Assembly (NCBI GenBank): GCA_977017645.1
Contig: OZ360222.1
Span: 44,950,001 to 45,014,000, forward strand
DNA: 64,000 bases
Reading direction: 5' to 3'
Origin: Torpedo marmorata
Taxonomy: Eukaryota
Every line of letters begins with the position of its first letter. The stretch's first letter is position 1. Position numbers and translations under genes: made by a program. Under the pieces are notes generated by a model. The model saw nothing but the letters and a program-made list of their open reading frames with translations, was not told the DNA's origin and did not search any database. Positions 25,154 through 64,000 of the stretch are shown here, piece by piece.

Positions 25154-25453
25154 CTTTTGGTCCACGATAGAACAGACGAGATCCTTGACGGCAGAGAGGG
25201 AGATGTCTTGTGCTTCGATGGTCACCGGTTCGCGAGTGAGGCCGATCTGCAGAAGGAAGGAGACGCCGTTGAAGGATCCCCGGGAATTGGTGGGACTCGG
25301 GGCACTGAAACTCCCATTGGAAACCCGGCCGGAAAGCACAGCAGAGGTGGCCGGCGGGGAGAGCGACGGGGTGGGCGAAGAGGCGGGCAGCGGCAGAGCG
25401 GATGGCAGCAATCTCTGGGACACGGGAGGAGACGAGTTGCTGTTGCTTGACAT
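25154..25453 (-). CDS. PRKD3: Serine/threonine protein kinase D3, first coding exon (100 codons)
   Basis: Translation MSSNSNSSPP...GRVSNGSFSAPSPTNSRGSFNGVSFLLQIGLTREPVTIEAQDISLSAVKDLVCSIVDQK matches the PRKD3 N-terminus as recalled (SNGSFSAPS..SRGS..VSFLLQIGLTRE.VTIEAQ..SLSAVKDLVCSIV.QK). It ends at a phase-0 donor AAG|GTGCAG at 25154/25153, just before the expected FPECG exon. Confidence 0.93.
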
Positions 25454-44229: not shown

Positions 44230-46328
44230 TGTAGTTTCCAGCAAGAGGGAAACTTAACAGATTGAAGAGCATATCTAACAAACCTTGCTAGTACTAACAA
44301 AGGAACAGCAAAGGAGAAATTCACCAGACAATGGTAAATTAAAAATAATAGTTTTTATTAAACTATTAATAACATAACATTTCTTACTTATCTCTAAACT
44401 TAACTCTAACTTAAACCCCACTATGTGCAAATGTAAATGTGTGTGTGTTAAAGTCCAAACTATTTCATTTAAACTTGAATCTGAAAAGTCAATTTTAAAG
44501 TCCAATTTCCAACTTCATGTTGAACTTCAGGATCCCTTTAAATTGTGATTCAGAATTAATTATAAAGCAAAAGTGAAGCATCCGATTTCTTTCAAACTCA
44601 CACGTCTTTTGACGAGTTGTTTTTCAGAGATATTTTTCTTCATGCGAGTGATTTAATAAACTCCCTCTTATCTTGCCAAAGAGTTCCGGAGTCTGTTTTC
44701 TACGATGATTTCTTTCTTAATTGAAAGTAACATACGATGCTGCTCTCTTTTCTTAGAAGCAGTTGAAAGTGGTCTTACTTTTACGGGGGCTCCCCAGGGC
44801 TGTGTGCTTAGTCCATTGCTGTTCACCCTGCTGACTCATGACTGTGCAGCAAAACACAGCTCGAATCACATCATAAAGTTCGCTGATGATACGACCGTGG
44901 TGGGCCTTATCAGTAAGAATGATGAGTCAGCATACAGAGATGAGGTGCAGTCACTAATGGAATGGTGCGGAACCAACAACCTGCATCTGAATGTAAACAA
45001 AACAAAAGAGTTGGTTGTCGACTTCAGAAGGGCCCGGGGGGATCATTCTCCATTGACGGCTCTACCGTTGAGGTCGTAAAGAGTACCAAGTTTCTTGGAG
45101 TGCACTTGGCGAAGAGTCTCAGCTGGTCCCTCAACACCAGTTCCATAGTCAAGAAAGCCCAGCAGCGTCTTTACTTCCTGCGAAGGCTGAGGAAAGTTCA
45201 TCTTCTACCCTCTATCCTTACTACATTCTACAGGGGATGTATTGAGAGTATTCTGAGCAATTGCATCACCGCTTGGTTTGGTAACTGTACCATCTCGGAC
45301 CGAAAGACCCTGCAGAGGATAGTGAGGTCAGCGGAGAAAATTATTGGAGTCTCTCTCCCCACCATGACGGACATCTACAACACACGATGCATGAGGAAGG
45401 CTAAAAACATTGTGAAGGACTTCTCACACCCCTTTGGTAAACTGTTTTCCCTTTTGCCATCTGGAAGGAGGTACCGAAGCACTCGGGCTTGTACGTCCAG
45501 ACTGTGCAACAGTTTTTTCCCCCAAGCCATCAGGCTCCTCAATTCCTAGATATATATGTGTATTAGCATGTTACAGTTTTTCTATTGTATTATGATATTT
45601 ATGTACATCTGCCCATGGTCCTGGAGAAACGCTATCTTGTCTTACTGTGTATAAGGTAATGAACGACAAATAAAGGTGACTTGACTTACTTATTTTAAAA
45701 GCCACTTATGTTGTGTATCTCCTATGATAAGGATAATACAATACAGAACAGCATTTCTATCTATTTCAGAGATCACTGCTCCAGATTCTGTCTTTCCAGA
45801 AAGTCAAATTTCTTAAAACTGATTTCTTTGTCTGATGCTGAGTTCAATAATATATTTCTTGCACATCTCTCATGTCACGATATGTGACATCATTGCTATC
45901 TTTGAAGTTCATAATGTCCTCTTCACACATATGCTAAAAGCATCTCTTCACACGTATACCTTCCTGCGTTTGACCAAGTATTTTCCTGAGTGTTTGAAGT
46001 TCCAACTTCTCCAAATGTTAATGAGAAGATGCCTCCTTGATGTCTAAACCACATGGACACAGAATGAACTTGCGTTTACACAGTTGCTTCTGAGCCAACA
46101 CCTATTGTTTTCAGTACCTCAAGAACCATCATAAAATCTTTTCTCTCTTGTCTCCAACTGAAACCAGAAGACATTCGGTCTCTGCAAATGGCCAACTCAA
46201 AGTACCATGTATTTAAAATGCAAATGTGTTGTCTTTGTGCCCCTGAATCACCCAAAATGAACTTATATCTAGATGAAATATAGTTTTAACATTAAACTAA
46301 AGATTAATATTAGCACAGATCCATTACA
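44230..46328 (-). mobile_element. Possible solo LTR-like repeat interrupted by Rex1
   Basis: TGTA...TACA ends; resembles the 28.7-kb LTR (TTTATTAAAC, AACCCCACTAT, GT repeat); no TSD found. Confidence 0.35.
44781..45690 (+). mobile_element. Rex1/Babar-like LINE 3' fragment
   Basis: [35 protein letters not shown]; (GACTT)n tail; CTTACTT on both flanks. Confidence 0.85.
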
Positions 46329-47054: not shown

Positions 47055-47830
47055 AATTCAAAGGTTCCTTTTATTGTCACATTAAAAATTTAATATACAT
47101 GATCCGTTTCAACTTTTGTCTGCCGTAAGGCAAAGTCACCATGAGCATTGCGTGGTGCCCCTAACAACAGAAAAAAGAGAAGCAAAAGAGAGTCCCTTCA
47201 TAGTCACCGAGGGTCTGTGGATTCGTCTCCAGCGCTCCCACAGCCTCTGCAGCTGCACAGACTTCAGTTCAATCCATCGGCAACCCGAGCTCCAGATCCA
47301 AACCTCCGACACAATCAGGAACCCTTCAGCATCAGAGGCCCCTTCAGGAGCCCCTCTTGCCCTCATTACCCTCTCGAATCCCAGCTCCGACACCTGCCTC
47401 TCATGAGCCAGTCCCCAGTAGCCCGGTGTGATTCTTTCGACTGCAAGTCGCCCGCAGCCTGAGCGAGTCCTTTGACCCCAAGTGGCCCACAGCCAGCCTT
47501 GGTGCCTCAGCTGCTCAGCCCCTTGCTGGTCCGCTGCCGTGGTCACTGTCCTGTAGGGTTGCCTCCCATGCCTCTGCTTCTCAACGAAGGGTGCTCTGCT
47601 GGTTTCTGGTGCTCTGCACTGGTCTGCTGTTCCCCCAGAGTCTGCCACCCCTCGTGGTACGCTGCCCAGCACAGGTGCCGCCATCTTGGGCACAGACATC
47701 AGTGGTTTCAAGATTTTAAAAAAACACCATTGGCTCCTTTAACAGGCCTTAAAGCATGTACAGAGTCATCATCATTCAGTCCAGGCGGTAGGACCCTGTG
47801 GAGCAGTGCTGTGCCTCCATTCCCCTGGGT
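47055..47830 (-). mobile_element. GC-rich SINE-like repeat (diverged copy)
   Basis: Similar to 6838-7695 and 60241-61070. Confidence 0.6.
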
Positions 47831-47834
47831 TTTC

Positions 47835-50072
47835 ATGTCACCGAAGACTCTCGTAAACTTCTACAGGTGTACTGTGGAGAGCATTCTGGCTGGTTGCATC
47901 ACTGCCTGGTATGGAGGCACCAACTCCCAGGACAAGAGTAAACTCCAGAGGGTTGTTAACGCGGCCTATGACATCACAGGCACCAAACTTCACTCCATCG
48001 AGGACATCTCAAATCATCTAGTATTGCGCCTCCTTCTCTGAGGAGCTTAACTACTTCTACGCTCGCTTTGACCGAGAGAACAAGGAGGTCACTTACAAGG
48101 CGGATCTTCTACCTGATGAATTGCCTCTCTCATTTTCCATCTCTGATGTATGGGCCACCTTGAGTAGGGTGAATGTACGGAAGGCTGCTGGTCCGGATGG
48201 CATACCTGGCCGTGTGCTTAGAGCCTATGCAGAACAGTTGGCTGGGGTTTTTACGGACATTTTCAATCTGTCCCTAGCCAAGGCAGTTGTTCCAACGAGC
48301 TTCAAGATCGCTACTATCGTGCCAGTGCCGAAGTGTTCTGCTGTCAGGAGCTTGAATGATTACCGTCCAGTTGCACTTACTCCCATCATCGCAGTGTTTT
48401 GAGAGATTGGTTTTATCACATTTGAAATTCTGTTTGCCTGCCACAATGGACTCTCATCAATTTGCCTACCGTACCAACAGGTCGACCGAGGATGCTATTT
48501 CTACAGTGCTCCACTCTGCTTTGACACACTTGGACAGCTCTAACTCCTATGTCAGAATGCTGTTCATAGATTTTAGCTCGGCTTTCAATACTGTTATTCC
48601 CTCCAAGCTGATTACCAAACTTTGTTTGCTTGGTATCAGCTCATCCCTCTGCAATTGGATTTTGGACTTCCTAACGAGCAGACCCCAATCTGTTAAGTTA
48701 GGCAATCTTTTTTCCTCCATTCTCACCTTGAATACCGGTGTACCTCAGGGTTGTGTGCTGAGCCCTCTTTTGTATTCCCTTTTTACCTCCGACTGCGTTC
48801 CTGTACATAGTACAAACTCCATAATCAAGTTCGCAGATGACACCACGGTGGTTGGCCTGATCAGAGGGGACGATGAAACGGCCTATAGGGATGAGGTTCA
48901 GCACCTGGCCTTGTGGTGTGCCAATAATAACCTGATACTTAATACTCAGAAGACCAAGGAGATCATTGTGGACTTTAGGCGTACTGGAAGCCACACTCAC
49001 GTCCCCATTTACATTCATGGAGTTGTGGTGGAACGTGTGTCAAGTTTTAAATTTCTTGGCGTCCAGATTTCTGAAGATCTTACTTGGTCCTTGAATTCTT
49101 CAAAGCTGATTAAAAAGGCACAACAGCGTCTTTACTTTCTGCGATGCATGAGGAAAGTACACCTCTGTCCTAGGATATTATTGGATTTCTATAGATGTAC
49201 CATTGAGAGCGTATTGACATATGGTATCTCGGCGTGGTATGGTAACTGCCTAGTACAAGACCGCAAAGTACTCCAGCGGGTGGTGAAAACTGCCCAGCAG
49301 ATTATTGGCTTGCAGTTGCCCACCATCGAGAACATCTATAGAGAACGGTGTCTGGGCAGAGCGAGGAACATTATTAAGGATGCATCTCACCCTAACCATG
49401 GACTTTTTACTCTTCTCCCATCGGGCAGACGCTACAGGAGCCTTCGCTCGCGTACCAGCAGGCTGAAGAAGAGTTTCTTTCATGAGGCTGTGAGCCTGAT
49501 GAACACTGAATCACAGCGCTGAGTGGTACTGCACTCACAGTGTAATATCAGTACTTTTATAATAGTTTGTTGTTGAATAGGTTGTCGTTGTTGATTAGGT
49601 TATTGTTGGTTTTTATTGCACATGTTTTATTGTAATGTATATAGCACTATTTTTTAACTTCTGGTTGGATGCTAGTTGTATCTCATTGGCTTGTTTTGAA
49701 CTGGTACAATGACAATAAAGTGCATCTATCTATCTATCTACCTACATGAGGCGGTATCTTAAAAAAGCAGCCTCTATCCTCAAAGACCCCCACCACCCAG
49801 GCCATGCCCTCTTCACTCTGCTTCCATCGGGAAAAAGGTACAGGAGCCTAAAGACGAGCACTCAACGGCACAAGGGCAGCTTCTTCCCCGCTGCCATCAG
49901 ATTCCTGAATAATCAATGAACCAAAGACACTGCCTTACTTTTCGTGCACTATTGTTTATAATTTTTTTTAGTAATGTCGTAAGATGGTTAATATGAATGT
50001 TAATTGCACTATGATGCTGCCGCAAAACACCGAATTTCATGACTTGTTCATGACAATAAATTCTGATTCTGA
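47835..50072 (+). mobile_element. Rex1 fragment (47835-48009 plus 49741-50072) hosting a younger Rex1-like LINE (48010-49740)
   Basis: The inner element has a long RT frame ([18 protein letters not shown]) and a (TATC)n tail; the outer pieces are collinear with the 36.1-37.1 kb family. Confidence 0.85.
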
Positions 50073-51250: not shown

Positions 51251-51489
51251 AAATATATTATATTTTTTTTCTGCATTTAAATATGTAAAAAGTGTGTAAA
51301 TTTTAAAAACTCATCCAGTGGAACTGGGTGATACAAAGCACAAATGAACAAAGGAGACAAAAAAAATTAAATGACTATTGTGTCATCGTCTGCATTAATG
51401 AACACTTAGATTATACATTAAAATAAATATAACCAATAGCTGAAAATATATTGTTATATTAACTATCTCAGTATCAGAACTGCCATATA

Positions 51490-51495
51490 TTTATT
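51490..51495 (-). terminator. Candidate MOCS3 polyadenylation signal AATAAA
   Basis: AATAAA on the minus strand about 500 nt downstream of the stop codon, in non-repeat AT-rich sequence. Confidence 0.35.
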
Positions 51496-51999
51496 CATGA
51501 TTGCTAAATGATACAAGTGCATTGTGAAGTAGCCAATTTCTATTGTCTAAATTTCTGCACGGGTCATTTGTCTCATTTGCCTGGGATACTATTTCAATTG
51601 CCACTTAACAGTTAACCTTTTAGTTTTCATAATATACCAGTATTATTAATTTAGTAGAGTATCTATAACAAAAGATACTTAATAAAATGATTCATTGTGA
51701 TAACCAGAGTTTCCATGTACTTGTATTTAGTTACTAATTGTTTGTGCCCTTATTAAGCAGTTCCAATATATGCAATACAGACATTTGTAATTACAGTACC
51801 TGGTAATAACTTTGATACTACTTGCACTTAAATACTGTGCGTGTTCTTTCCAGTTACAGAGCAATCCCAACAAATTACTTTTCATACATATTTACTGAAG
51901 TACATATAATTTGCAGCATATTGAAAAATTATTATACTTTAAGAAAAACTTTTTAAAATTGGTTTCCATAATTTGCCTCTCTTTTTCCCCTCTGAGCAA

Positions 52000-52151
52000 T
52001 TAATACTGTGGGAAGGTTGGATCAATTTTATGAGCCCAGGCCATTAATCCACCTTGAATATCCTTCAAGGAATAGAGCTCGTGGTTTAGCATCCCCTGCA
52101 GGATTTTGACAGCCTTCTGCGAATCATTTCCTTGTTTGCAGATAACATACA
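52000..52151 (-). CDS. MOCS3: MOCS3 last coding exon (V)[49 protein letters not shown]
   Basis: Pyrimidine tract plus CCAG| acceptor; rhodanese active-site loop C-K-x-G-N-D-S; Uba4/MOCS3 C-terminus GGL.AW...ID..FP.Y; TAA at 52002-52000. Confidence 0.95.
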
Positions 52152-52260
52152 CTGGAGGTGGAGAGAAAAAAACAATAATTAAATTTAGTTGTTTTTACCT
52201 GCTGGTTCATTGACTAAAATATACCATATAACTAAAATGTGTCACAATGAATGCTTATTT

Positions 52261-55200
52261 TCCAACTTTAATACCTACAATTTTAATATCTTGTCTAATT
52301 AATTCTGCTAAAGGTTCTATTGCTAAAATAAACAATGCTGGCGACAAAGGACATCCTTGTCTAGTTGGCCTAGTCAACAAAACTTTTGTTTTTTTTTAAT
52401 ATATTTTATTTTAAGTTTTCAAATTTTTCACAATAATACAAAATAGTACAAAATATATGATAAACATTAATGAGTTCAATACAAACAAAATTCGTATTAC
52501 CGTGATTCTAACCCCATCTCAACCCACCCTCACTAAAACAACCCACCCTCCACCCTTCCCATCCCTTACTCCCTCCCCTAACTAAAAATAAAGAAAAAAG
52601 AAGAAAGAGGAGAAGACATTGACATTTATCAAAAAAAAAACATCCGTACGGGTCCACGGCTCGGTGCGAGACATTCAATAGTATTCATTCTTTAAGTTTA
52701 AATTTAAGAGAGTCAGCAGGGTCTAGGATGTAGAGCAACACATTTAAATATTCATTCCTAATAATTGGATAAATGGACGCCAAATTTGCAAAAATATCCC
52801 ATATTTATTCCTCATATTATATGTTATTCTTTCCAATGGAATACAACTCCGCATCTATCCATCTATCCATACTTAAATTTATATCCGATTTCCAAGTTAC
52901 TGCTATACATTTCCTTGCTACTGCTAATGCAATTTTTACAAATTTCAATTGCCATGTAGATAACTTCAATTTTGGTCTAGTTCCTTCCACATTTCCCAAT
53001 AAAAATAAATCAGGATTCTGTGGAAATGTAACACCTGTAATTTGTTTTAACCGATTTCCTAGCTCTATCCAAAAACCTTTAACTTTTGGACATGACCACG
53101 TTGAGTGTAAAAAGGTTCCTTCTTCTTCACCACATCTAAAACATCTATTTGATATCATAGAATTTATCTTATTCAATTTTTGTGGTGTAAGATATCATTG
53201 ATGTAAAAAGTTATATTGTACCAATCTATATCTTACATTAACAGTATTAGTCATACTATCTAAACATAAATCCGACCACCTTTTTTCATCAATTGTAACA
53301 TTAAGATCTTGTTCCCATCTTTGTCTAGATTTATGAAGTCCTCGTTTTAAAGCTCCCCTTTGTAGCAAAGAATACACTATAGAAGTAAATTTCTTAATAT
53401 TTCCTTTCCTAATAAGAGTTTCTACCTCACTACAATCTTGTAACAACAAATCTGGACCTAGTTTTTCTCTTAAATAACCTCTTAGTTGAAAATAATAAAA
53501 AAGAGTATTATTGGGTATTCCATATTTATTCCGTAATTGTATAAATGACATCAATTGATTTCCTTCATAACAATCTTCTATCTTCTCTATTCCTTTTAAT
53601 GATCAAGTATTTAAAAATTGATTATCTTTTGTAAATGGTATAAGGTTATTCTGTATCAAAGGCACTTTGGGTGATATACTTCCTTTCAACCCTATGTCAT
53701 CATTAACCTTATTCCAAACATTAATCAAATGTTTTAATAACGGCGTTTCTTTAACACCTGTCAATAGTTTTGAATTCCATTTGTATATAAATTCTTGTGG
53801 TACCTTTTCTCCTATTTCTCCTAGTTCTATTCCAACCCACGCAGGTCTTTCTTCAGTTTCAAAAAAAGAAGCAACAAATCGCATTTGTGCCGCTCGGTAA
53901 TAATTCTTAAAATTAGGGAGTTGCAAACCCCCCAATTCATATTTCCATGTTAAACGTTCCATTGAAACTCTTGACATTTTACCTTTCCATAAAAATTTTC
54001 GCACTTGTTTATTTAAGTCCTGAAAGAAAACCTGTGGTAATAAAATAGGTATAGTCTGATACAAATACTGTATCCTTGGAAATATATTCATTTTGATACA
54101 GTTAACTCTTCCTATCAGTGTAATTGGTAAATTAGTCCACTTTTCTAAATCCTCCTTAATCTTGTTAAGTAATGGTACATAGTTCCATTTATATAGATTT
54201 TTTAATTTATTATCTGTCCGAACCCCAAGATATTTTATTCCATTATGTGGCCATTTAAACTGAGTAGTTCTTTTGCATACAGTATAGTCTCCCTCTGTAA
54301 GAGGCATAACTTCACTTTTATCCCAATTTATCTTGTAACCAGAGACTTTTCCATATTCCTTCAACAAAACTTTTGAAGAAATTTGTCCATTTGTCACCAC
54401 TCTCGCAAAAGGTTCTTTATATATAGTTTTAATCCAATTAATAAATGTATTTCCAAAACCAAATTTTTCTAACACTTTAAATAAATAGTTCCACTCTAAT
54501 CTATCAAAAGCTTTTTCGGCATCTAATGTTAATACTAATGCTAATTCTTTCTTTTGTGCCACATTTATTAAACTAATCAATATTATCCTTTGAACATCTA
54601 TTTTTAATAAAATCTGCTTGATCAGCATGAATTAAATCAGGTAAATATATCGCCACTCTATTTGCTAAAATTTTTGCCATTATCTTATAATCTACATTTA
54701 ACAATGAAATCGGCCTATATGATTCCGTTTTCAACAAATCTCTATTTTTTTTGGTATAACCGTTATTATTGCATTTGAAAACGTTTCCGGTAGAGAATGA
54801 GATTCCGTTATTTTTAACACCTCCATATATGGAGGTATCAATAAATCCTTAAATTCCTTATAAAATTCTGATGGGAAACCATCCTCCCCCGGAGTCTTTC
54901 CACTTGTCAAGGAACTAAGAGCATCATTAACTTTCTCTCATCGTAAACGATGCATCTAAAAATTCTTTACCTTGAATATTTAATCTAGGTAATTTAACTT
55001 TAGATAAAAATTCATTAATTTTAGATTCATCTTTATCAGTTTAAGATTTATATAAATTTAAATAAAATTCCTTTCTCGAGGTTTATATGTTGGAAAAGAA
55101 GAACATAAAATTAGTTTGTTTGCAGATGATGTATTGATTTACATGACAAAACCTATTGATTCTTTAATGCAACTGACTGTTTTATTGAGAGAATATGGGG

Positions 55201-57034
55201 AAATATCTTGTTATAAGATTAATTCTAATAAAAGTGAAATTATGGCATTGACACAAGGAGATTATAATAAATGTAAAGAAACTACTCGATTTAAATGGTC
55301 TAATAATGGAATTAAATATTTGGGAATAAAAATAGATACAAAATTAGGTAATTTATATAAATTAAATTATTTACCATTATTTACTAATATTAAAAAAGAT
55401 TTAGAGAATTGGAAAGACTTACCTATAACTTTAATAGGAAGGGTAAATTGTATCAAAATGAATGTCTTTCCAAGAATTCAATATCTTTTTCAATCAATTC
55501 CTTATGAAATTCCTCAATTTTTTTAAGGATTTAATTTTAATTATTAGGAAATTTTTGTGGAAAGGAAAGTTGGCTAGAGTAGGTATGGAGAAATTAACCT
55601 GGGATTACGAAATGGGTGGTTTACAACTTCCCAATTTTCAAATTTATTATAAAGTAGCTCAATTAAAATTTATTAACGAAATGTTTGATTTAGGAAAATC
55701 TTCTGCTTGTATTAGAATAGAACTAAATAATATAGGAGAAGATTTGAAAGAAGTTATTTATAAATGGAATTCTAAATTATTATTAGGAGGAGGTAAAAAC
55801 TCTCCTATTTTAAGGCATTTGTTAGAAATATGGAATAAAATTGATAGGGAGATAGGAGGGAAAGGGTTAATTTCTTGTAAAATGCCTTTATATCAAAATA
55901 AACATCCTATTTACTATTGATAATCAATTGTTTAAAATTTGGTTTCAAAAAGGGATTAAAAAAGTAAATGACTGTTTTGAAGCTGGTAAATTTATCACTT
56001 TTCAAAGAATGAAAGAGAAGTTTAATGTATTAAATAATACACTCTTTGCTTATTATCAATTAAGAGCATTTTTCTTGAAAAGTTAGGACATAGTTTAATC
56101 TTACCAAGACAAAGTGAATTGGAGTTACTAGTTATTAATGGGGGTATAAATAAATTTATTTCTCAAATGTATAGATTGTTACAGAAAAAAATGCCTAAAC
56201 CAGGAATTCATAAATCAAGATTAAAATGGGAATTAGATCTGAATGTAACAATAGATGAGGAACATTGGAAAGAAATATGTAAACAAAGTATGACGAAGAT
56301 TATTAACGTTAGATATAGGTTAGTGCAATATAACTTTTTGCATCAGTTATATTTAACTCCTAAGAAACTAAAGAAATTTAATCCGACATTATCAGGTTTA
56401 TGTTTTAGATGTAATAAGGAGGAAGGTTCTTTTGTACATTCTATGTGGTTTTGTCCAAAGATATATGATTTTTGGTTGAAAGTTAAAAAGTTTTTAGATA
56501 AAGTATTAAGAATGACACTCCCAATGGATCCTATGATATTTTTGATTGGAGATATTAAAAGAATTAGTATTAAAATGAGATTAAATAATTACCAAATAGA
56601 ATTTTTGTGAATTGCTTTAGCTGTTTCAAAGAAATGCATTGCTATTACATGGAAATCTGATGTAGATTTAGGGTTAGAAAGATGGCATGCAGAACTTCGT
56701 TCATGCATACCACTTAAAAAAATTACCTATAATTTAAGTAATAAATATCATTTCTTTTTGAAGGTATGGAGCCCATATATAAAAACTGTGGGTTTAAGGA
56801 TTTGAAGATCTCTTGATATCGGGTCTGACTGGTGAACCTGTGTTCCCAATAAAATTAATCTATAGTTGTTTTCTTTTAGAATGACATTCTCCACACTCTA
56901 TTCTTTTCTTTCTTTTTTTAGTAGAGTAGAGGGGGTGCGTGGGTTAGGGAGGGGGAAGGAAGGGAGGGGAGGGTGAAAATATATCACATGTATTATCGTG
57001 TGATTTAAAATTTTAAATAAAATATTTTTTAAGA
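52261..57034. mobile_element. L1 with 5' inversion (twin priming): inverted part on minus (52261-52388 plus 54376 to about 55072), direct part on plus (about 55085-57034)
   Basis: 15-bp TSD AATGAATGCTTATTT at 52246-52260 and 57035-57049; the ORF2 reading ...VGIKVG | KEEHKISLFADD is continuous between the TSD-proximal end of the inverted part and the start of the direct part. Confidence 0.88.
52389..54360 (-). mobile_element. Second 5'-truncated L1 nested in the inverted segment
   Basis: 15-bp TSD TCAACAAAACTTTTG at 52374-52388 and 54361-54375; poly(A) tail and AATAAA at about 52389-52410. Confidence 0.88.
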
Positions 57035-57069
57035 AATGAATGCTTATTTAAGATTTAGGAATTACGAGT

Positions 57070-57390
57070 CTGTTTCCCATGGCTGAGGTGTCGAAAGGTA
57101 GAGGGCATGCATGTGCTTAAGGTGAGAGTGAGAAGGTTTAAAGGGTATCTGAAGGGTAATTTTTTCCACACAAAGTACGGTTGGTATCTGGAATAAGCTT
57201 CCAGAGGAGGAAGTGGTGGCAGGAATTGTAACAATGTTTAAGTGGCACCTGGACAGATACTTCAAATGGCGAGGCAACTGAGGGATTTTGAATTAATGCA
57301 AGTGTGATTAATGTAGATGGGCATAATGGTCACTAGAGTCATAGTGGGCTGAAGGGTCTGTTTCCATTCAATCCAGGTCTATAACTATGA
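57070..57390 (+). mobile_element. CR1 3' fragment
   Basis: Degenerate RGH..KV...FFTQ..V.IWN.LP; CTATGACT-like tail. Confidence 0.7.
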
Positions 57391-57985
57391 CTCAATGATT
57401 TGAAACAAAGCTCTAAGTTATTGTCAGTGCTAATATGGAATTTTATTCCAATTACCACAGAATTTGTAAGGAAATCAGAAATGCTTTCTTGGATTGACAT
57501 ATTTCAACATTTTTCTGAAAAACACAATGCAGTATTAATTAAATGTTGTATCTTAAAATCAAAAATTTGTTTTGTTTTTATTACTGTGTTCCTGGTAGGC
57601 TGAAATTCCTCCTAAAAGATAAACCAAGAGCCCCCCCTGGTGATGAAAGTTCAAACAGAAAGGCATGGTACAAACACAAACTGTCTGGAGGCATTCAGAG
57701 AGTTGAGCAGTATCTGTGGAGGGTGGGCAGAGAGATAAGGAAATGTCAGCAATTTGGGCCGAGGCCCTGCATCAGGACAGGTCAATCTGCCGAGTTCCCA
57801 AGGAGCACATGTAAACTCCACACAGACAGCACCTGAGATCATGATTGAACCTGTATCTCTGGAGCTGTGAGAGAGCAGTGCAAAATGCTGCATCACTATG
57901 TTGCCTTTTTTTCTAGAATTGCAATTAGGGGAGATCGTTACAACGTAAACAACCAACGTATAGAGACCACATAATAAAAATGTAC

Positions 57986-58096
57986 CTGGGAAGGTGACTT
58001 TATCAGCTGCTTCATTATTTCTCTTCTCGTTGATGTTATTCCATAACAGCTTCATGCATTCAACATTCTTTTCTTCGAGATCAGTCAATGGAATAT
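57986..58096 (-). CDS. MOCS3: MOCS3 exon (Y)IPLTDLEEKNVECMKLLWNNINEKRNNEAADKVTFP
   Basis: Acceptor GTCAG|AT and donor CCAG|GTACA; 111 nt, phase 1/1; joins both neighbouring exons in frame. Confidence 0.88.
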
Positions 58097-58764
58097 CTGA
58101 CATTGTGCTTAAGAAACAATACTAAAAGCTTTTAATCTGAAAACAAGATCAATTATTCATGCAAAATAATTACAAACAAGGTGAGTTGATGAAGAGAATA
58201 CAGATTGACTCTACCAATCATCCAGAAACCGAGACTAATGACTTTGGGACACGAGGAATTAAATAGTTACAACCAAAATGGATAGGAAACTAGCTTAAAG
58301 GTAGTAGTGGTAAATGGTTATTTTTCTGGACAGAAGTATGACTATGGATAACTCAGATCAATGCTGGGACCACTGCTTTATTCAATACAAATGACTTAGA
58401 CATGAGTACACAAGATAAAATTTCCAAAATCTGCTGATATCAAGAAGCTTGGAAGTGTGGCAAACAGTGAAGAGGATACAATAGTCTGAAAGATAATTTA
58501 GATAGAACAAGTAAACAACTGGGAAAAGAATACAGAGCAAAAATGACCATTGAGGCAGAAAGGGAGATAACATTGTCTAAATGGTGCCATTCTAAAGAGT
58601 GTGTAGGAACAGAGGTACCCAACTGAAGATGTGCATAAATACTTGAGTCATGGGTTTGTTGATAGAATGATTATTAAAGAATATAGTTTCATTACTGGAG
58701 ACAAAGTACAAAAACTGAGGAGTTACTTTGAAAAATCAAAAAGCAGATGCTGGAAATGTAAAAT

Positions 58765-58937
58765 AAAAACAGAAAATACTGGAAATACTCAGCAGGTCAG
58801 GCTGCATCTGTGGGAAGAGAAACAGTGCTCAAGTTTTAGGTCAAAGGCCTTTCATCAGAACAGGTAAACAACTCTGTTGTTTCTCTTCCTACAGATGCGG
58901 CTCAATTCGCTGAGTATTTCCAGTATTTTCTGTTTTT
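58765..58937. repeat. Fold-back element built from Penelope tails
   Basis: Perfect 29-bp inverted repeat at 58765-58793 / 58909-58937, extending imperfectly to about 60 bp; hammerhead-like core in the loop. Confidence 0.8.
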
Positions 58938-60240
58938 GTACAAGTTATTTTGAACCTGAACTCCTGATCTGTGAGAGTATCCTGAACATCTTGGACCCAG
59001 AGACCATTTTTAAATTAGAGGTTGCATGCCAAAATTGTTGCCAGCTTGTCTGTGTACCTGACAAGCAAATGCATAGTAGCCACTGCACATGTACAGTAAA
59101 CACCAATTATTCAAAATTCTATTGTGCAATATTGATCGGAGGAGTGAGACCTGCTTTGGCATATTAATGTGAAGTGTCTACTCTACTTGTGTGACCCTTA
59201 AAGTCCAACTTGCCACCTTTAACTCCCCAACTTTACCACTCCCTCCTTGTTACAGAAGTCATTGAAATTTACCACACACAAAGGAGATCATTGTATCCAA
59301 GTCAATCAAAATATTGTGGATTTGGTTGCTTCCATTTCCCACCTCTTCATCCACATCCCCACATCCTATGGCTGGTCAAGAGTTCTGCTGGTTCATCTTT
59401 ATATATTTGAAGCCTAAAATATTGTTCCCATTATCCACACTGTGAATTTTGTTTAATCTATTCATTTATCAAATATAGTGTTGACAATTAAGTTCTACGC
59501 ATATACCATGAGAGCAAGGTTCCTATTACAGACTTCTTTATACAGCATGTTACACATGATCACTAAAAATCTTGTTAATCATTACCTTTTGCTTCCCCTC
59601 CCAATGAGTCAATTTGGAATCCAGTATGGGGATCCATCTCACCTCCACCTTCTGTGAAACTTAAAACTAACTTATTTTCTCTCTTTCCCAGTTCTGCCAA
59701 ATGGTCTTCAATCCAAAATGTCAACTCTGTTGCTCTTTCACTAACCTGTTGATTATTTCCAATATTTTGTTTTTACCACAGGCCAAGATTTGGGTGCCCT
59801 GGTCCATACATGGAATAAAGGTGCTTAATCAGTTCTGAAATAACTTCTTGGAAGACAAAACAAAGATTTATATTAATAGTTTGAAAAAGAATAAAGCTGC
59901 TCACTTTTGATAACAACCGCAAATTTGTTGAAAGTAGATGAGAAACAATTGTGAAAATAATGCAAAAGCTCAGAAATAACTGCATGAAGACTGGGAAAAC
60001 CAATAATAATAAACTTTAATCAAAGGAAACGAGTAAGTGCAGCAATTAAAAAGGAATCAGTTTGCTGAGTACACCCAGTAAAGCATTTTCTTAAACACTG
60101 CTGAGAACGAAAACATGCATAGTATTTGCAAAATATGATGAATTAACTGCTTTTACACCAAGATGAAGTATAATAGATCAACAGTTTATGTTAAGACAGA
60201 TTTCAGAGAAATTTATAAAACATAACATTTATTGTTGCAG

Positions 60241-61070
60241 CAAGAATGGCGGCGCTGCTGGAGCCGCTGTAGCGGCAGCGCTGCCGCTGGTGCGGACCCG
60301 CGGGGAGCGTGGGAGCGGAGATACAGCGCTCCCACGGGGTCCAGCCGCCCAGTCGACTGCCATCGGTTCCGCACGGGCTTTGAACGGCCCGTTAAAGGAG
60401 CCGACGGTGGTTTTATTTGAGATCCCGCGACCACGGGGTCTGCGCCCAAGATGGCAGCGCCTTTAACCGGCAGCAGCCACGAGGGGCTGCAGACTCCGGG
60501 GAAGCGGAGGACTGGAGCAGGGCACCAGAGGACAGGAAGATCACCCCCGTCTGAGAAGGAGAAGCAGAGGAGACGACCCACGGGACGGTGACCACGGCAG
60601 CGGACAGGTGAGGGGCTCTGAGGCTGAAGGACCAGTGCATGCGGCGGGCTGCTGGCGACTCGAGGAACCCGCGGAGGCTGTGGGCTGCTGTCGGGGGACT
60701 CACACCAGGCTGCGGACTGCTGGAGGCTGGCTCGAACTGGCTGGAGGAGTACCAGGTATCGGAACCGGGATGCGAGGGGGTGCTGAGGGCGCCCTGACCG
60801 TGTTGGAGGTTCGGATCTGGAGCTCGGGTTGCCGATGGTTTGGACTGGACTCTGTGTGGCTGCGGAAGCACTGGAGGCGAATCTATGGACACTCGGTGAC
60901 TCTGAGGGATCTCTTTTGCTTCTCTTTCTCTGACTGTAAGGAATGTTAGAGGCGCTTAGACAATTTCTGCCGGTGGCGAATCTGTCTGCCTTGTAGCAGG
61001 CAAAAAGAAATTTCATGGAATATGACACTGTCTTATTACTATGACAATAAAATGAATCTTGAATCTTGAA
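60241..61070 (+). mobile_element. GC-rich SINE-like repeat, probably the most complete copy
   Basis: Starts AAGAATGGCGGCG; ends TGACAATAAAATGAATCTTGAATCTTGAA; homologous to 6838-7695. Confidence 0.72.
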
Positions 61071-62614
61071 CTTCATAAATTTTAGGCATGCCTTTGAGAA
61101 CATATGGCAAGAAGTGTTCTAGCACATCTTGAAAATGTCTGGTATTGCTGAGAGACTTGTCACAGTGAAAGAAAACAACCACAAGTCCTCGAGCACTGCT
61201 AAAGTGTATAGAAATTGGAAGAAATGGGTTGAATTAATATTTCAGATTAACAAGGATGTACATTGCTTGATTTCTTTATTCTATTACTGGAAGCGGTCAT
61301 AAATATTGAACTGAGAGTTGATTTGGCTTCACACTTTTTGTTTAACATCACTTGGAGTCATGAATGAAATTGTTTTAAAATCCTCAACAAATTCCAAGAT
61401 GAAAATGCTTGCTGGATTCAAGATATTCAGTTCTGATAAACAAGAAAATTGAGAAAACTAATTGAAAAATCACCGAGGTCAAAGAAAGATTATTTATATT
61501 TTAAAACATGAAAACACTGTAAATGCTGACATTATGCAGTATTACCATTTCTAGTTTTATTTGTTAATGCATTAATCTATACAAACAAATGAGTAATTTA
61601 TAAAATGGATTACATCAATTGTTGAATTCTCACAATTGATCTCTTGCTCACATATTTCCTATCCCATCAAATCACCATGAAGGAAAAAAAGGGAGAAAAA
61701 GAATATCTCCAAATACATAACCCCTGTTAATTATCAGAGGTAAATTTTACAAAGTTAGGCTTATTTGCAATAAAGAACGGTCATGAATAGGATTAATACA
61801 AATAAAGAACTGCATAAAGACAAAGAGATCAGGATGAAATAGAAAATAGAAATTTAAACCAGTTAAAAATATGTTTTATTTAATCAAAGTGCTGTTAAGA
61901 GACCAAAGGTTTAAAAGGATAATAGAGACAGGAAATCCATATTGGAGGGGTACATGCTCCTTTATGTCAGTTTCCATTTTTTCTCCCCCATGTATATGTT
62001 TAATTTGAATAGAAACCAAATAGAAAACTATTGACAATGACTAGTAAAGAGAGAGAACACTCTGGCCTAGTAATGTTGATTTCACAAACTGCAAATGAAA
62101 ATTTACTCACCATGGAGTGAAACAAAAAAATGACAGGAAACATTTCCAGGTCATTTCACATCATTCTGGACATATGCTGGTTTGCACAGAAAGTTATATC
62201 TATCCTTCAAGTGATGCAGGTAATAATTCAGTGTTTTTCGTCATTGCACAGAAACTTCTCTAAAGCAAATCCTTTACTTGGCTTCTATTCTTTAGACATC
62301 CTTACCCAATATATTAGCTCATGACATATTCCACCCAAAACCAACCATCAATCTTGTCTTTCAGCCCTCCATTACAACTCTATTATCCAAAACTCCTATC
62401 TCCACTCAACCCCCGGCCATTATATCCAGTATCCTCCTCCCTCACAGCCACTTACCCGATTACCTGAATAACTTGACTTTAATAATGAAAATTATCTGCA
62501 TCATATTCCCTCAATATAGAATGAATGTAGTGGAACTGAAGTAGTTTATAAATTACACCCATTTTCTCCTACTTTTCACTGCATAACAATGAACAAAATT
62601 TAAAAAAAGGATAC

Positions 62615-62711
62615 AAATAGAGCTGGGTAGATGGCAAATATCAACCTCTACTTGTGGGCGAACATCCACCAGGACATGAGGAATATCTTCATCCAAAAGA
62701 TGTTTATATTC
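62615..62711 (-). CDS. MOCS3: MOCS3 exon, start of rhodanese domain [32 protein letters not shown]
   Basis: Acceptor CTGTAG|GAA; 97 nt; conserved [11 protein letters not shown] motif; donor T|GTATCCTTT (phase 1). Confidence 0.92.
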
Positions 62712-62959
62712 CTACAGTTATGGAGAAGGCAAATTATAACAGTGTCAGTACTTCTGAGCAACTTAAAGATCTTCTAAATAACTTGGATTTATGAATATTT
62801 AAAATAAACTGCAAAATTTAAAAAAATGTATAATAATATAAATGTATTCATTTTTCAGGCATGGAAAATGCAATGTATCAACAGAGCTACTACACTTCAA
62901 CTTATAAATGCATAGAAAACATTTGTCCTTGCTATGAAAGTAAAAAGAAAGCAGCTTAC

Positions 62960-63007
62960 CTGTACAGTTATTCTTTGTTCTCCAGTTAACAAATGAAGTG
63001 TCCTACA
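62960..63007 (-). CDS. MOCS3: MOCS3 (adenylyltransferase/sulfurtransferase, Uba4 family) internal exon CRTLHLLTGEQRITVQ
   Basis: Acceptor TTATAG|TGT and donor CAG|GTAAGC; 48 nt, phase 0/0. Resembles the human linker CRSLQLLSPEERVSV. Confidence 0.85.
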
Positions 63008-63309
63008 CTATAATTGGAATGCACAATCAGTGGAAGAGGGTCAGGTGTCAAGATAATAAACAGTAATTGGGTATCTTAAATGTGCACTATAAAACGATAA
63101 TCATTACTTCCTAAATGGGGCATGCAACTTAATCATGGACCACCTTGCATCATTATCATCATTACAACAGAAGATTGACTAAAATTAGGCTTGGATGTAC
63201 AGCCATCTCCAGCAGAAATATTCTCCATAAAATATTACGTGGGATCATAGGACCCACATAAGTATCCCAGTGCTTGAGAAATAAAGGTACCTAATGTGGA
63301 CCTTATTTT

Positions 63310-63567
63310 ATAATTTTAAATTTAGACATACAGCACGGTTACAGGCCATTTCGGCCCACGAGTCCGTGCCGCCCAATTTACACCCAATTAATCTACACCC
63401 CCAGTACGTTTTGAACAGTGGGAGGAAACCGGAGCCCCCGGGGAAAACCCACGCAGACACGGGGAGAACGTACAAACTCCTTACAGACAGCGCGGGATTC
63501 GAACCCCGGTCCCGATCGCTGGCGCTGTGAAGGCATTGCGCTAACCGCTACGCCAACCGTGCCGCCT
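63310..63567 (-). mobile_element. tRNA-derived SINE, young CpG-retaining copy
   Basis: TGGCGTAGCGGTTAGC...GGTTCGAATCCC; same family as the 51030 copy. Confidence 0.82.
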
Positions 63568-64000
63568 AATCTCCATCACTTTTGCTCTGACAATACCCCC
63601 TTTCATTAAGGTAAGTCTTCCACTTTGTTCAACTAGAAGATTCCCTTCACCTGTAGTAGTTGAGAGGGGCCTCAGCCATGCCTGCTTTCGTCTCTTAATT
63701 CATCTCAGAACCAAGATATAAACCCAGTTCCATTGTATCAACCTCGACATTTTAATAGCTCCTTTTAGCCCATTTCTGATACCTTCAGATGGATGTCAAC
63801 ATTAAACAATCCAACCCTTATCTTCCCATTTCAGCATTTTATAGTGTTTGTTCCCTCCATGTATTCTGCTTTTCAATTTTCACCATCTACTTTCAAGCTC
63901 CTTCATATGGAAGTGCACAAGATAGAATGAATACCTGCCTTTTACTTCCTAACTGCCCACACCAAAGGCCCCAAAATTTCATTCCACATGAAATGGCAAT

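What the first reader, a model, noticed from the sequence alone, without database searches (positions are those of the whole stretch)
52000..63007. Intron-containing MOCS3 next to PRKD3: candidate ancestral locus of a gene that is intronless in human
Seen: four exons with GT-AG boundaries and consistent phases encode the MOCS3 linker and rhodanese domain. Established: human MOCS3 is a single-exon gene beside DPM1, and the human upstream neighbour of PRKD3 is QPCT. Inference: this is the parental spliced gene and the mammalian copy is a relocated retrogene that replaced it.
Basis: partly seen in the sequence, partly recalled or inferred. Interest (0 to 1): 0.7.

Follow-up and report, generated by a model that had tools for sequence, protein, structure and literature searches.

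The report
Spliced MOCS3 parent with minor introns
This is the intact, 13-exon MOCS3 gene of a ray, sitting between PRKD3 and QPCT; it is likely the old home of the gene that birds and mammals keep only as an intronless copy beside DPM1 (a known replacement), and three of the twelve introns that the copy lacks carry the signals of the rare minor spliceosome.

Summary
Observation confirmed. The four exons are real and are exons 10-13 of a 13-exon, 459-aa MOCS3 spanning about 90 kb, the only copy found in this batoid genome; public contigs join all three in-window junctions. The gene lies between PRKD3 and QPCT; the DPM1 to Kv-channel interval on another contig holds no MOCS3. MOCS3 and PRKD3 accessions are near-consecutive in 14 of 14 non-tetrapod species where both were listed, coelacanth and lungfish included, so this is likely the ancestral jawed-vertebrate locus. 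The retrogene reading is right but in print: human MOCS3 is listed as an orphan retrogene (PMC3548309). 'Mammalian' is too late: chicken also has MOCS3 beside DPM1. The relocation would thus have removed three minor introns at once, a new case of a described process. Amphibian locus not tested.

The parts
62960..63007 (-). MOCS3 coding exon 10 of 13 (linker, aa 325-340)
   Evidence: joint 62710/62959 in 4 of 4 runs
62712..62959 (-). intron 10, 248 nt, major-type GT-AG, phase 0
62615..62711 (-). MOCS3 exon 11 (start of rhodanese domain)
   Evidence: Pfam Rhodanese E 0.0027, under the curated cut-off
58097..62614 (-). intron 11, 4518 nt, GT-AG, phase 1, U12-type by sequence
   Evidence: donor 7/7 to the U12 consensus, branch-point match 7/9 about 13 nt from the 3' end; joined in 4 of 4 runs
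62607..62614 (-). U12-type 5' splice site of intron 11
58108..58116 (-). predicted U12 branch point of intron 11
   Evidence: 7/9 match; weakest of the three
57986..58096 (-). MOCS3 exon 12
52152..57985 (-). intron 12, 5834 nt, major-type GT-AG, phase 1; holds broken LINE fragments in both orientations
   Evidence: (joined in X1)
52000..52151 (-). MOCS3 exon 13, coding part: active-site loop CKQGNDS (Cys414 of the model) to stop
51264..51999 (-). 3' UTR; AATAAA at 51495-51490; contigs end at 51451, 51467 and 51264
63008..64000 (-). 3' part of intron 9; exons 1-9 lie beyond the window end (G000:C11:45016873-45092324)
25154..25453 (-). PRKD3 first coding exon (100 codons), the downstream neighbour
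   Evidence: (98% to a ray PRKD3)

Best explanation
The window holds the 3' end of an intact, spliced, single-copy MOCS3 gene between PRKD3 and QPCT, likely the ancestral jawed-vertebrate locus, from which a reverse-transcribed copy likely moved next to DPM1 on the amniote stem and replaced it, an event that would have removed twelve introns, three of them predicted minor (U12) type. Shown here: exon structure, open frame, catalytic motifs, neighbours, empty DPM1 interval, joined contigs at five junctions, U12 signals. Inferred: the protein works as other MOCS3/Uba4 enzymes (adenylates URM1 and MOCS2A with its ThiF domain, then transfers sulfur from the rhodanese cysteine, for tRNA thiolation and molybdenum cofactor; recalled); a spliced mRNA was retroposed after the lungfish and probably the amphibian split, took over expression from the CpG-rich DPM1 promoter region, and the parent was then deleted, leaving PRKD3 next to QPCT.
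For: 13 exons give 459 aa without a stop, 95% identical to Narcine MOCS3. One locus only in the 6.2 Gb genome, 11 of 11 matches on C11 (strict first look). QPCT on the far side, 119 bits against 84 for QPCTL. DPM1 at C49:49.24 Mb and a Kv-channel gene 85 kb away, with no MOCS3 match better than E 0.39 in 200 kb free of N. MOCS3 and PRKD3 accessions within 1 to 29 numbers in 14 of 14 species with both listed. Coelacanth and lungfish isoforms lack exactly exon 3 and exon 10. Goat list reads PRKD3, QPCT with no MOCS3; pig MOCS3 spans 2.4 kb, 274 bp from DPM1; chicken has it beside DPM1. Orphan retrogene listing. U12: 3 of 12 donors match 7/7, the other 9 at most 4/7; only 9 such octamers in 264 kb of that strand; AT..AA joint in 4 of 4 runs; U12 snRNA present; chimaera and one cyprinid gene model read through the same donor; zebrafish mocs3 minor intron responsive in both rnpc3 mutants.
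Against: No amphibian, reptile or teleost locus was seen, so a DNA-level move before intron loss is not excluded. Accession adjacency is indirect, and no amniote species had both accessions listed, so the test has no negative control of its own. U12 status in this species rests on sequence only; the branch point of intron 11 is 7/9 and major intron 6 also scored 7/9. The AA end of intron 5 rests on this one assembly. Which zebrafish intron corresponds to which ray intron was not determined. The Kv gene is called KCNG1 from position and recall; tools showed only a Kv channel.
Confidence: 0.87

Rival explanations
1. Two steps: the whole intron-containing gene moved to the DPM1 locus as DNA in an early tetrapod, and its introns were lost there later by recombination with its own cDNA.
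For: PMC3548309 itself says other routes of intron loss cannot be excluded. The amphibian locus was not seen in any call.
Against: It needs two rare events and loss of all 12 introns in place; the move and the loss coincide in every species seen. Pig MOCS3 sits 274 bp from DPM1, as expected of a copy that lacks its own promoter.
Confidence: 0.08
2. The DPM1 position is ancestral and the gene moved next to PRKD3 in cartilaginous fishes only.
For: Direct sequence was seen for one batoid genome only.
Confidence: 0.01
3. The RTATCCTT introns are relics now spliced mostly by the major spliceosome, so the retroposition changed nothing in regulation.
For: [quoted passage not shown]
Against: An AT-AA intron with a 7/7 donor and 8/9 branch point is removed exactly; the donor appears kept in chimaera and a cyprinid; AT-AA is the commonest non-canonical minor terminus.
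Confidence: 0.1
4. The joined contigs come from an intronless DNA copy in the sampled animals, not from RNA, and the spliced locus is silent.
For: No run is on record as RNA.
Against: No intronless copy in G000; the frame is open over 13 exons with intact splice signals; one 1694-letter contig follows the exons with 1 to 2 other letters per exon.
Confidence: 0.02

Closest known systems
MOCS3/Uba4 adenylyltransferase-sulfurtransferase (ThiF PF00899 + rhodanese PF00581)
   Same: Domain order, GxGGxG, two CxxC, DxxDN, CKxGNDS loop and C-terminal FPQY; 95% to Narcine, 59-89% to the other full-length vertebrate proteins.
   Different: A two-residue deletion near aa 436-438 against all 26 proteins aligned; otherwise an ordinary orthologue.
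Human 'orphan' retrogenes (Ciomborowska et al., PMC3548309; MOCS3 is entry 12 of 25)
   Same: Single-exon human gene, no parent left, intron-containing orthologue in an outgroup (Xenopus laevis in their supplementary figure).
   Different: In the text I read (parts 2-3 of 8, passages, one supplement) neither the parental locus nor the intron class is given; figure 1 with the dating could not be seen. Here the parent is placed between PRKD3 and QPCT.
Loss of U12 introns by retroposition, e.g. CCDC16/ZNF830 (Lin et al., PMC2831892)
   Same: A minor-intron gene replaced by an intronless copy; that paper attributes 3 of 8 vertebrate U12 losses to retroposition.
   Different: MOCS3 does not occur in its main text; here three predicted U12 introns, one AT-AA, are lost from one gene.
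Retrogene replacement with promoter co-option, amphioxus SYCP1 (PMC5803294, search listing only)
   Same: Relocated copy replaces a multi-exon parent and uses neighbouring regulatory sequence.
   Different: Other gene and lineage; promoter sharing with DPM1 was not tested here.

Membership tests
MOCS3/Uba4 | N-terminal ThiF/MoeB domain with nucleotide-binding GxGGxG and two CxxC | tested here: met
   motifs at aa 90, 223, 298 of the model; Pfam ThiF 278 bits on the 95% identical P0001
MOCS3/Uba4 | C-terminal rhodanese domain with CKxGNDS persulfide loop | tested here: met
   aa 414-420; 3i2v E 7e-15
MOCS3/Uba4 | thiocarboxylation of URM1/MOCS2A | not testable with these tools
   function recalled, no assay
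Parent locus of an orphan retrogene | outgroup gene has introns across the region that is one exon in human | tested here: met
   12 introns over the whole CDS; human single-exon status from PMC3548309
Parent locus of an orphan retrogene | different neighbours for parent and copy, with both empty sites visible | tested here: met
   PRKD3-MOCS3-QPCT and empty DPM1 interval here; goat, pig, chicken gene lists
Parent locus of an orphan retrogene | intron loss and move in one step (no intron-containing stage at the new site) | not testable with these tools
   no amphibian or reptile genome available
Parent locus of an orphan retrogene | poly(A) remnant and target-site duplication at the copy | not testable with these tools
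   amniote DNA not available; unlikely to survive so old an event
U12-type (minor) intron | 5' splice site RTATCCTT | tested here: met
   introns 5, 8, 11 match 7/7; the other nine at most 4/7
U12-type (minor) intron | branch point TCCTTAAC-like 10-20 nt from the 3' end | tested here: met
   8/9, 8/9, 7/9 at about 14, 16, 13 nt; intron 11 weakest; major intron 6 also 7/9
U12-type (minor) intron | minor spliceosome present in the organism | tested here: met
   U12 snRNA 143.5 bits, 4 matches over cut-off; other minor snRNAs not searched
U12-type (minor) intron | splicing depends on U11/U12/U4atac/U6atac | not testable with these tools
   only indirect: one zebrafish mocs3 intron responsive to rnpc3 loss

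The most novel reading that the evidence does not exclude
In fishes MOCS3, the sulfur-transfer hub for tRNA thiolation and molybdenum cofactor, is gated by three minor introns; the amniote retrocopy escaped that gate in one step and was kept over its parent for that reason. Fish models of minor-spliceosome disease would then carry a Moco and tRNA-thiolation defect that patients cannot have.
Probability: 0.2. Interest if true: 0.65.

Novelty: new member of a known kind. Interest (0 to 1): 0.36.

Why it matters
Two details add something. The parental address and both empty sites can be named, which turns a 2013 list entry into a relocation that can be dated with amphibian genomes. And the lost parent had three predicted minor introns in one gene, so MOCS3 is a clean natural experiment on what happens when an essential gene leaves minor-spliceosome control; it also warns that zebrafish rnpc3-type mutants mis-splice a gene that is intronless in people.

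Tried and rejected
Rhodanese family search of the genome did not return these short exons; the protein query did. A PRKD3 search in the wrong frame gave nothing and was redone. No PRKD3 exon in the 200 kb before the window; explained by a first intron of about 243 kb. No RNA holder listed for the 3' UTR query: no evidence either way. Rfam scan of the window: 0 matches. Scan of 150 cluster representatives for read-through of U12 donors: 1 of 150 at intron 5, 0 at introns 8 and 11, and six other positions also had one match each, so it says nothing on depth beyond vertebrates. Accession look-up gave no amniote species with both genes and no amphibian MOCS3. Ending intron 5 at the neighbouring AG was rejected: contigs join one base earlier. 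PDB and Atlas could not name the Kv gene's subfamily. Literature: 'mocs3' with 'U12-type' 0 papers; 'mocs3' with 'retrogene' 1 paper; no paper with mocs3 plus prkd3 among the 9 listed of 11; supplement of PMC9501576 could not be read, nor files 1-2 of PMC3548309; these and intron databases may already list the mocs3 minor introns. No earlier scan findings.
Full report
Observation. The last exon matches the human MOCS3 rhodanese domain at E 7e-15 and other rhodaneses only at E 0.35. The best protein hit is the electric ray Narcine (88% on this exon), so the 6.2 Gb genome is a batoid's; I did not try to name it further.

The whole gene. With 200 kb fetched beyond the window, tblastn found nine more exons. 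Thirteen exons over about 90 kb give 459 aa with no internal stop, 95% identical to Narcine, with GCGGLG, two CxxC and CKQGNDS. A genome search with the Narcine protein gave 11 matches, all 11 at this locus (a stricter first look was used, so weak copies could be missed).

Splicing. Five runs held the 3' UTR query, none on record as RNA. Their contigs join 62710/62959 and 58096/62615 in 4 of 4 runs laid and 52151/57986 in 1 of 4 among the joints shown (at most 3 samples, 2 studies). A second lay joined introns 5 and 6 in 4 of 4 runs (2 studies).

Neighbours. Downstream is PRKD3: first coding exon at 25154-25453, 98% to a ray PRKD3, rest of the gene to C11:44.36 Mb. Upstream, on the plus strand about 33 kb from the MOCS3 start, is QPCT (119 bits against 84 for QPCTL). 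DPM1 is on another contig, C49, with a Kv-channel gene 85 kb upstream that I take as KCNG1 from position and recall. In those 200 kb, free of N, four MOCS3 proteins gave no match better than E 0.39 and the cDNA model only two short 3' UTR matches. Mammals and chicken show the mirror image: goat PRKD3, QPCT, CDC42EP3 with no MOCS3 (PMC9902602, passages); pig DPM1, MOCS3 of 2.4 kb at 274 bp distance, KCNG1 (PMC2374978, passage); chicken KCNG1, MOCS3, DPM1, ADNP (PMC12159700, passage).

Which place is ancestral. Other vertebrate genomes were not available, so I used accession numbers, which annotation pipelines tend to issue along the chromosome (recalled; Narcine, the closest relative, behaves so). 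In 14 of 14 species with both proteins listed, MOCS3 and PRKD3 numbers lie 1 to 29 apart, and contig lengths agree wherever both were shown: eleven sharks and rays, chimaera, coelacanth and lungfish. No amniote had both listed, so the test lacks its own negative control; no teleost or amphibian pair was available. Coelacanth isoform X2 lacks exactly exon 3 and lungfish X2 exon 10, so these genes share the introns. In a tree of 18 proteins the five amniote rows form one side of a 100/99 branch; six amniote proteins have 0.32-0.35 G+A+R+P against 0.215-0.255 in full-length non-amniote ones, which fits a move into GC-rich sequence but may also have pulled the amniote rows together.

What is in print. 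PMC3548309 (read: parts 2-3 of 8, passages, supplement file 3; figure 1 and files 1-2 not seen) lists MOCS3 among 25 human orphan retrogenes and pairs it with Xenopus laevis. Read with the chicken list, this puts the event between the amphibian and bird-mammal splits. The parental address was not found in print, though it is plain in public annotation.

Three of the 12 donors, introns 5, 8 and 11, match the U12 consensus 7/7, the other nine at most 4/7; their branch-point matches are 8/9, 8/9 and 7/9 at 13-16 nt (consensus recalled and seen in PMC7367187 passages). Only 9 such octamers occur on that strand in 264 kb. Intron 11 lies inside the finding. Intron 5 has AT..AA ends, which the contigs confirm; AT-AA is the commonest non-canonical minor terminus (PMC10639083, passages). 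U12 snRNA is in the genome. Four of seven chimaera models and one cyprinid model translate through the same donor at intron 5, a sign that it is old. A zebrafish mocs3 intron is classed minor and responds in both rnpc3 mutants (PMC11347168, Table S6 row and passages); I could not tell which intron it is. 'mocs3' with 'U12-type' returned 0 papers. Retroposition as a route of U12 loss is described (PMC2831892, passages: 3 of 8 vertebrate losses; MOCS3 not in the main text).

How it most likely went. Shown: an intact spliced gene at PRKD3-QPCT and an empty DPM1 site in this ray. Inferred: a spliced mRNA was reverse-transcribed on the amniote stem, landed at the 5' end of DPM1, was expressed from that CpG-rich region (the ray's DPM1 start has CpG o/e 0.8-0.9), and the parent was deleted. 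Confidence 0.87; the main rival is a DNA move followed by intron loss in place (0.08), which amphibian genomes would decide. Whether escape from minor splicing favoured the copy is untested (0.2).

Verdict. Real, correctly read in outline, core idea already published; the parental address and the triple minor-intron loss are the additions. New member of a known kind; interest 0.36.

Noticed in passing
G000:C11:44362030-44975453 (window 25453 and before): PRKD3 spans about 613 kb; its first coding intron is about 243 kb.
   Followed up: partly
G000:C74:25.68-26.00 Mb: A second PRKD paralogue lies about 230 kb from a second M28/QPCT-like gene: likely the PRKD2-QPCTL paralogon, with no MOCS3 match there, so the PRKD-QPCT link may predate the vertebrate genome duplications.
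   Followed up: no
window 52036-52050 region, exon 13: In-frame two-residue deletion near aa 436-438 against all 26 proteins aligned, Narcine included; not checked against reads.
   Followed up: no
window 52770-56800: Two broken, A+T-rich LINE fragments in opposite orientation fill most of MOCS3 intron 12.
   Followed up: partly
window 48356-49522 and 44660-45549: Reverse-transcriptase frames with RVT_1 and ALKBH8_N (Pfam) matches, non-LTR element pieces between PRKD3 and MOCS3 (only the first scanned).
   Followed up: partly
window 60240-61070, 47100-47740: A G+C-rich repeat of very high contig depth, also seen in intron 5 and at the DPM1 locus; a young dispersed element, not classified.
   Followed up: no
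public proteins P0013, P0016, P0020, P0153-P0155, P0254: Gene models of sturgeon, coelacanth, chimaera and a cyprinid carry short false insertions at the positions of introns 5, 8 or 11: predictors mis-splice these introns.
   Followed up: partly
G000:C49:49260000-49321000: Several long LTR-retrotransposon-like frames (up to 1386 aa) between DPM1 and the Kv gene; observed only.
   Followed up: no
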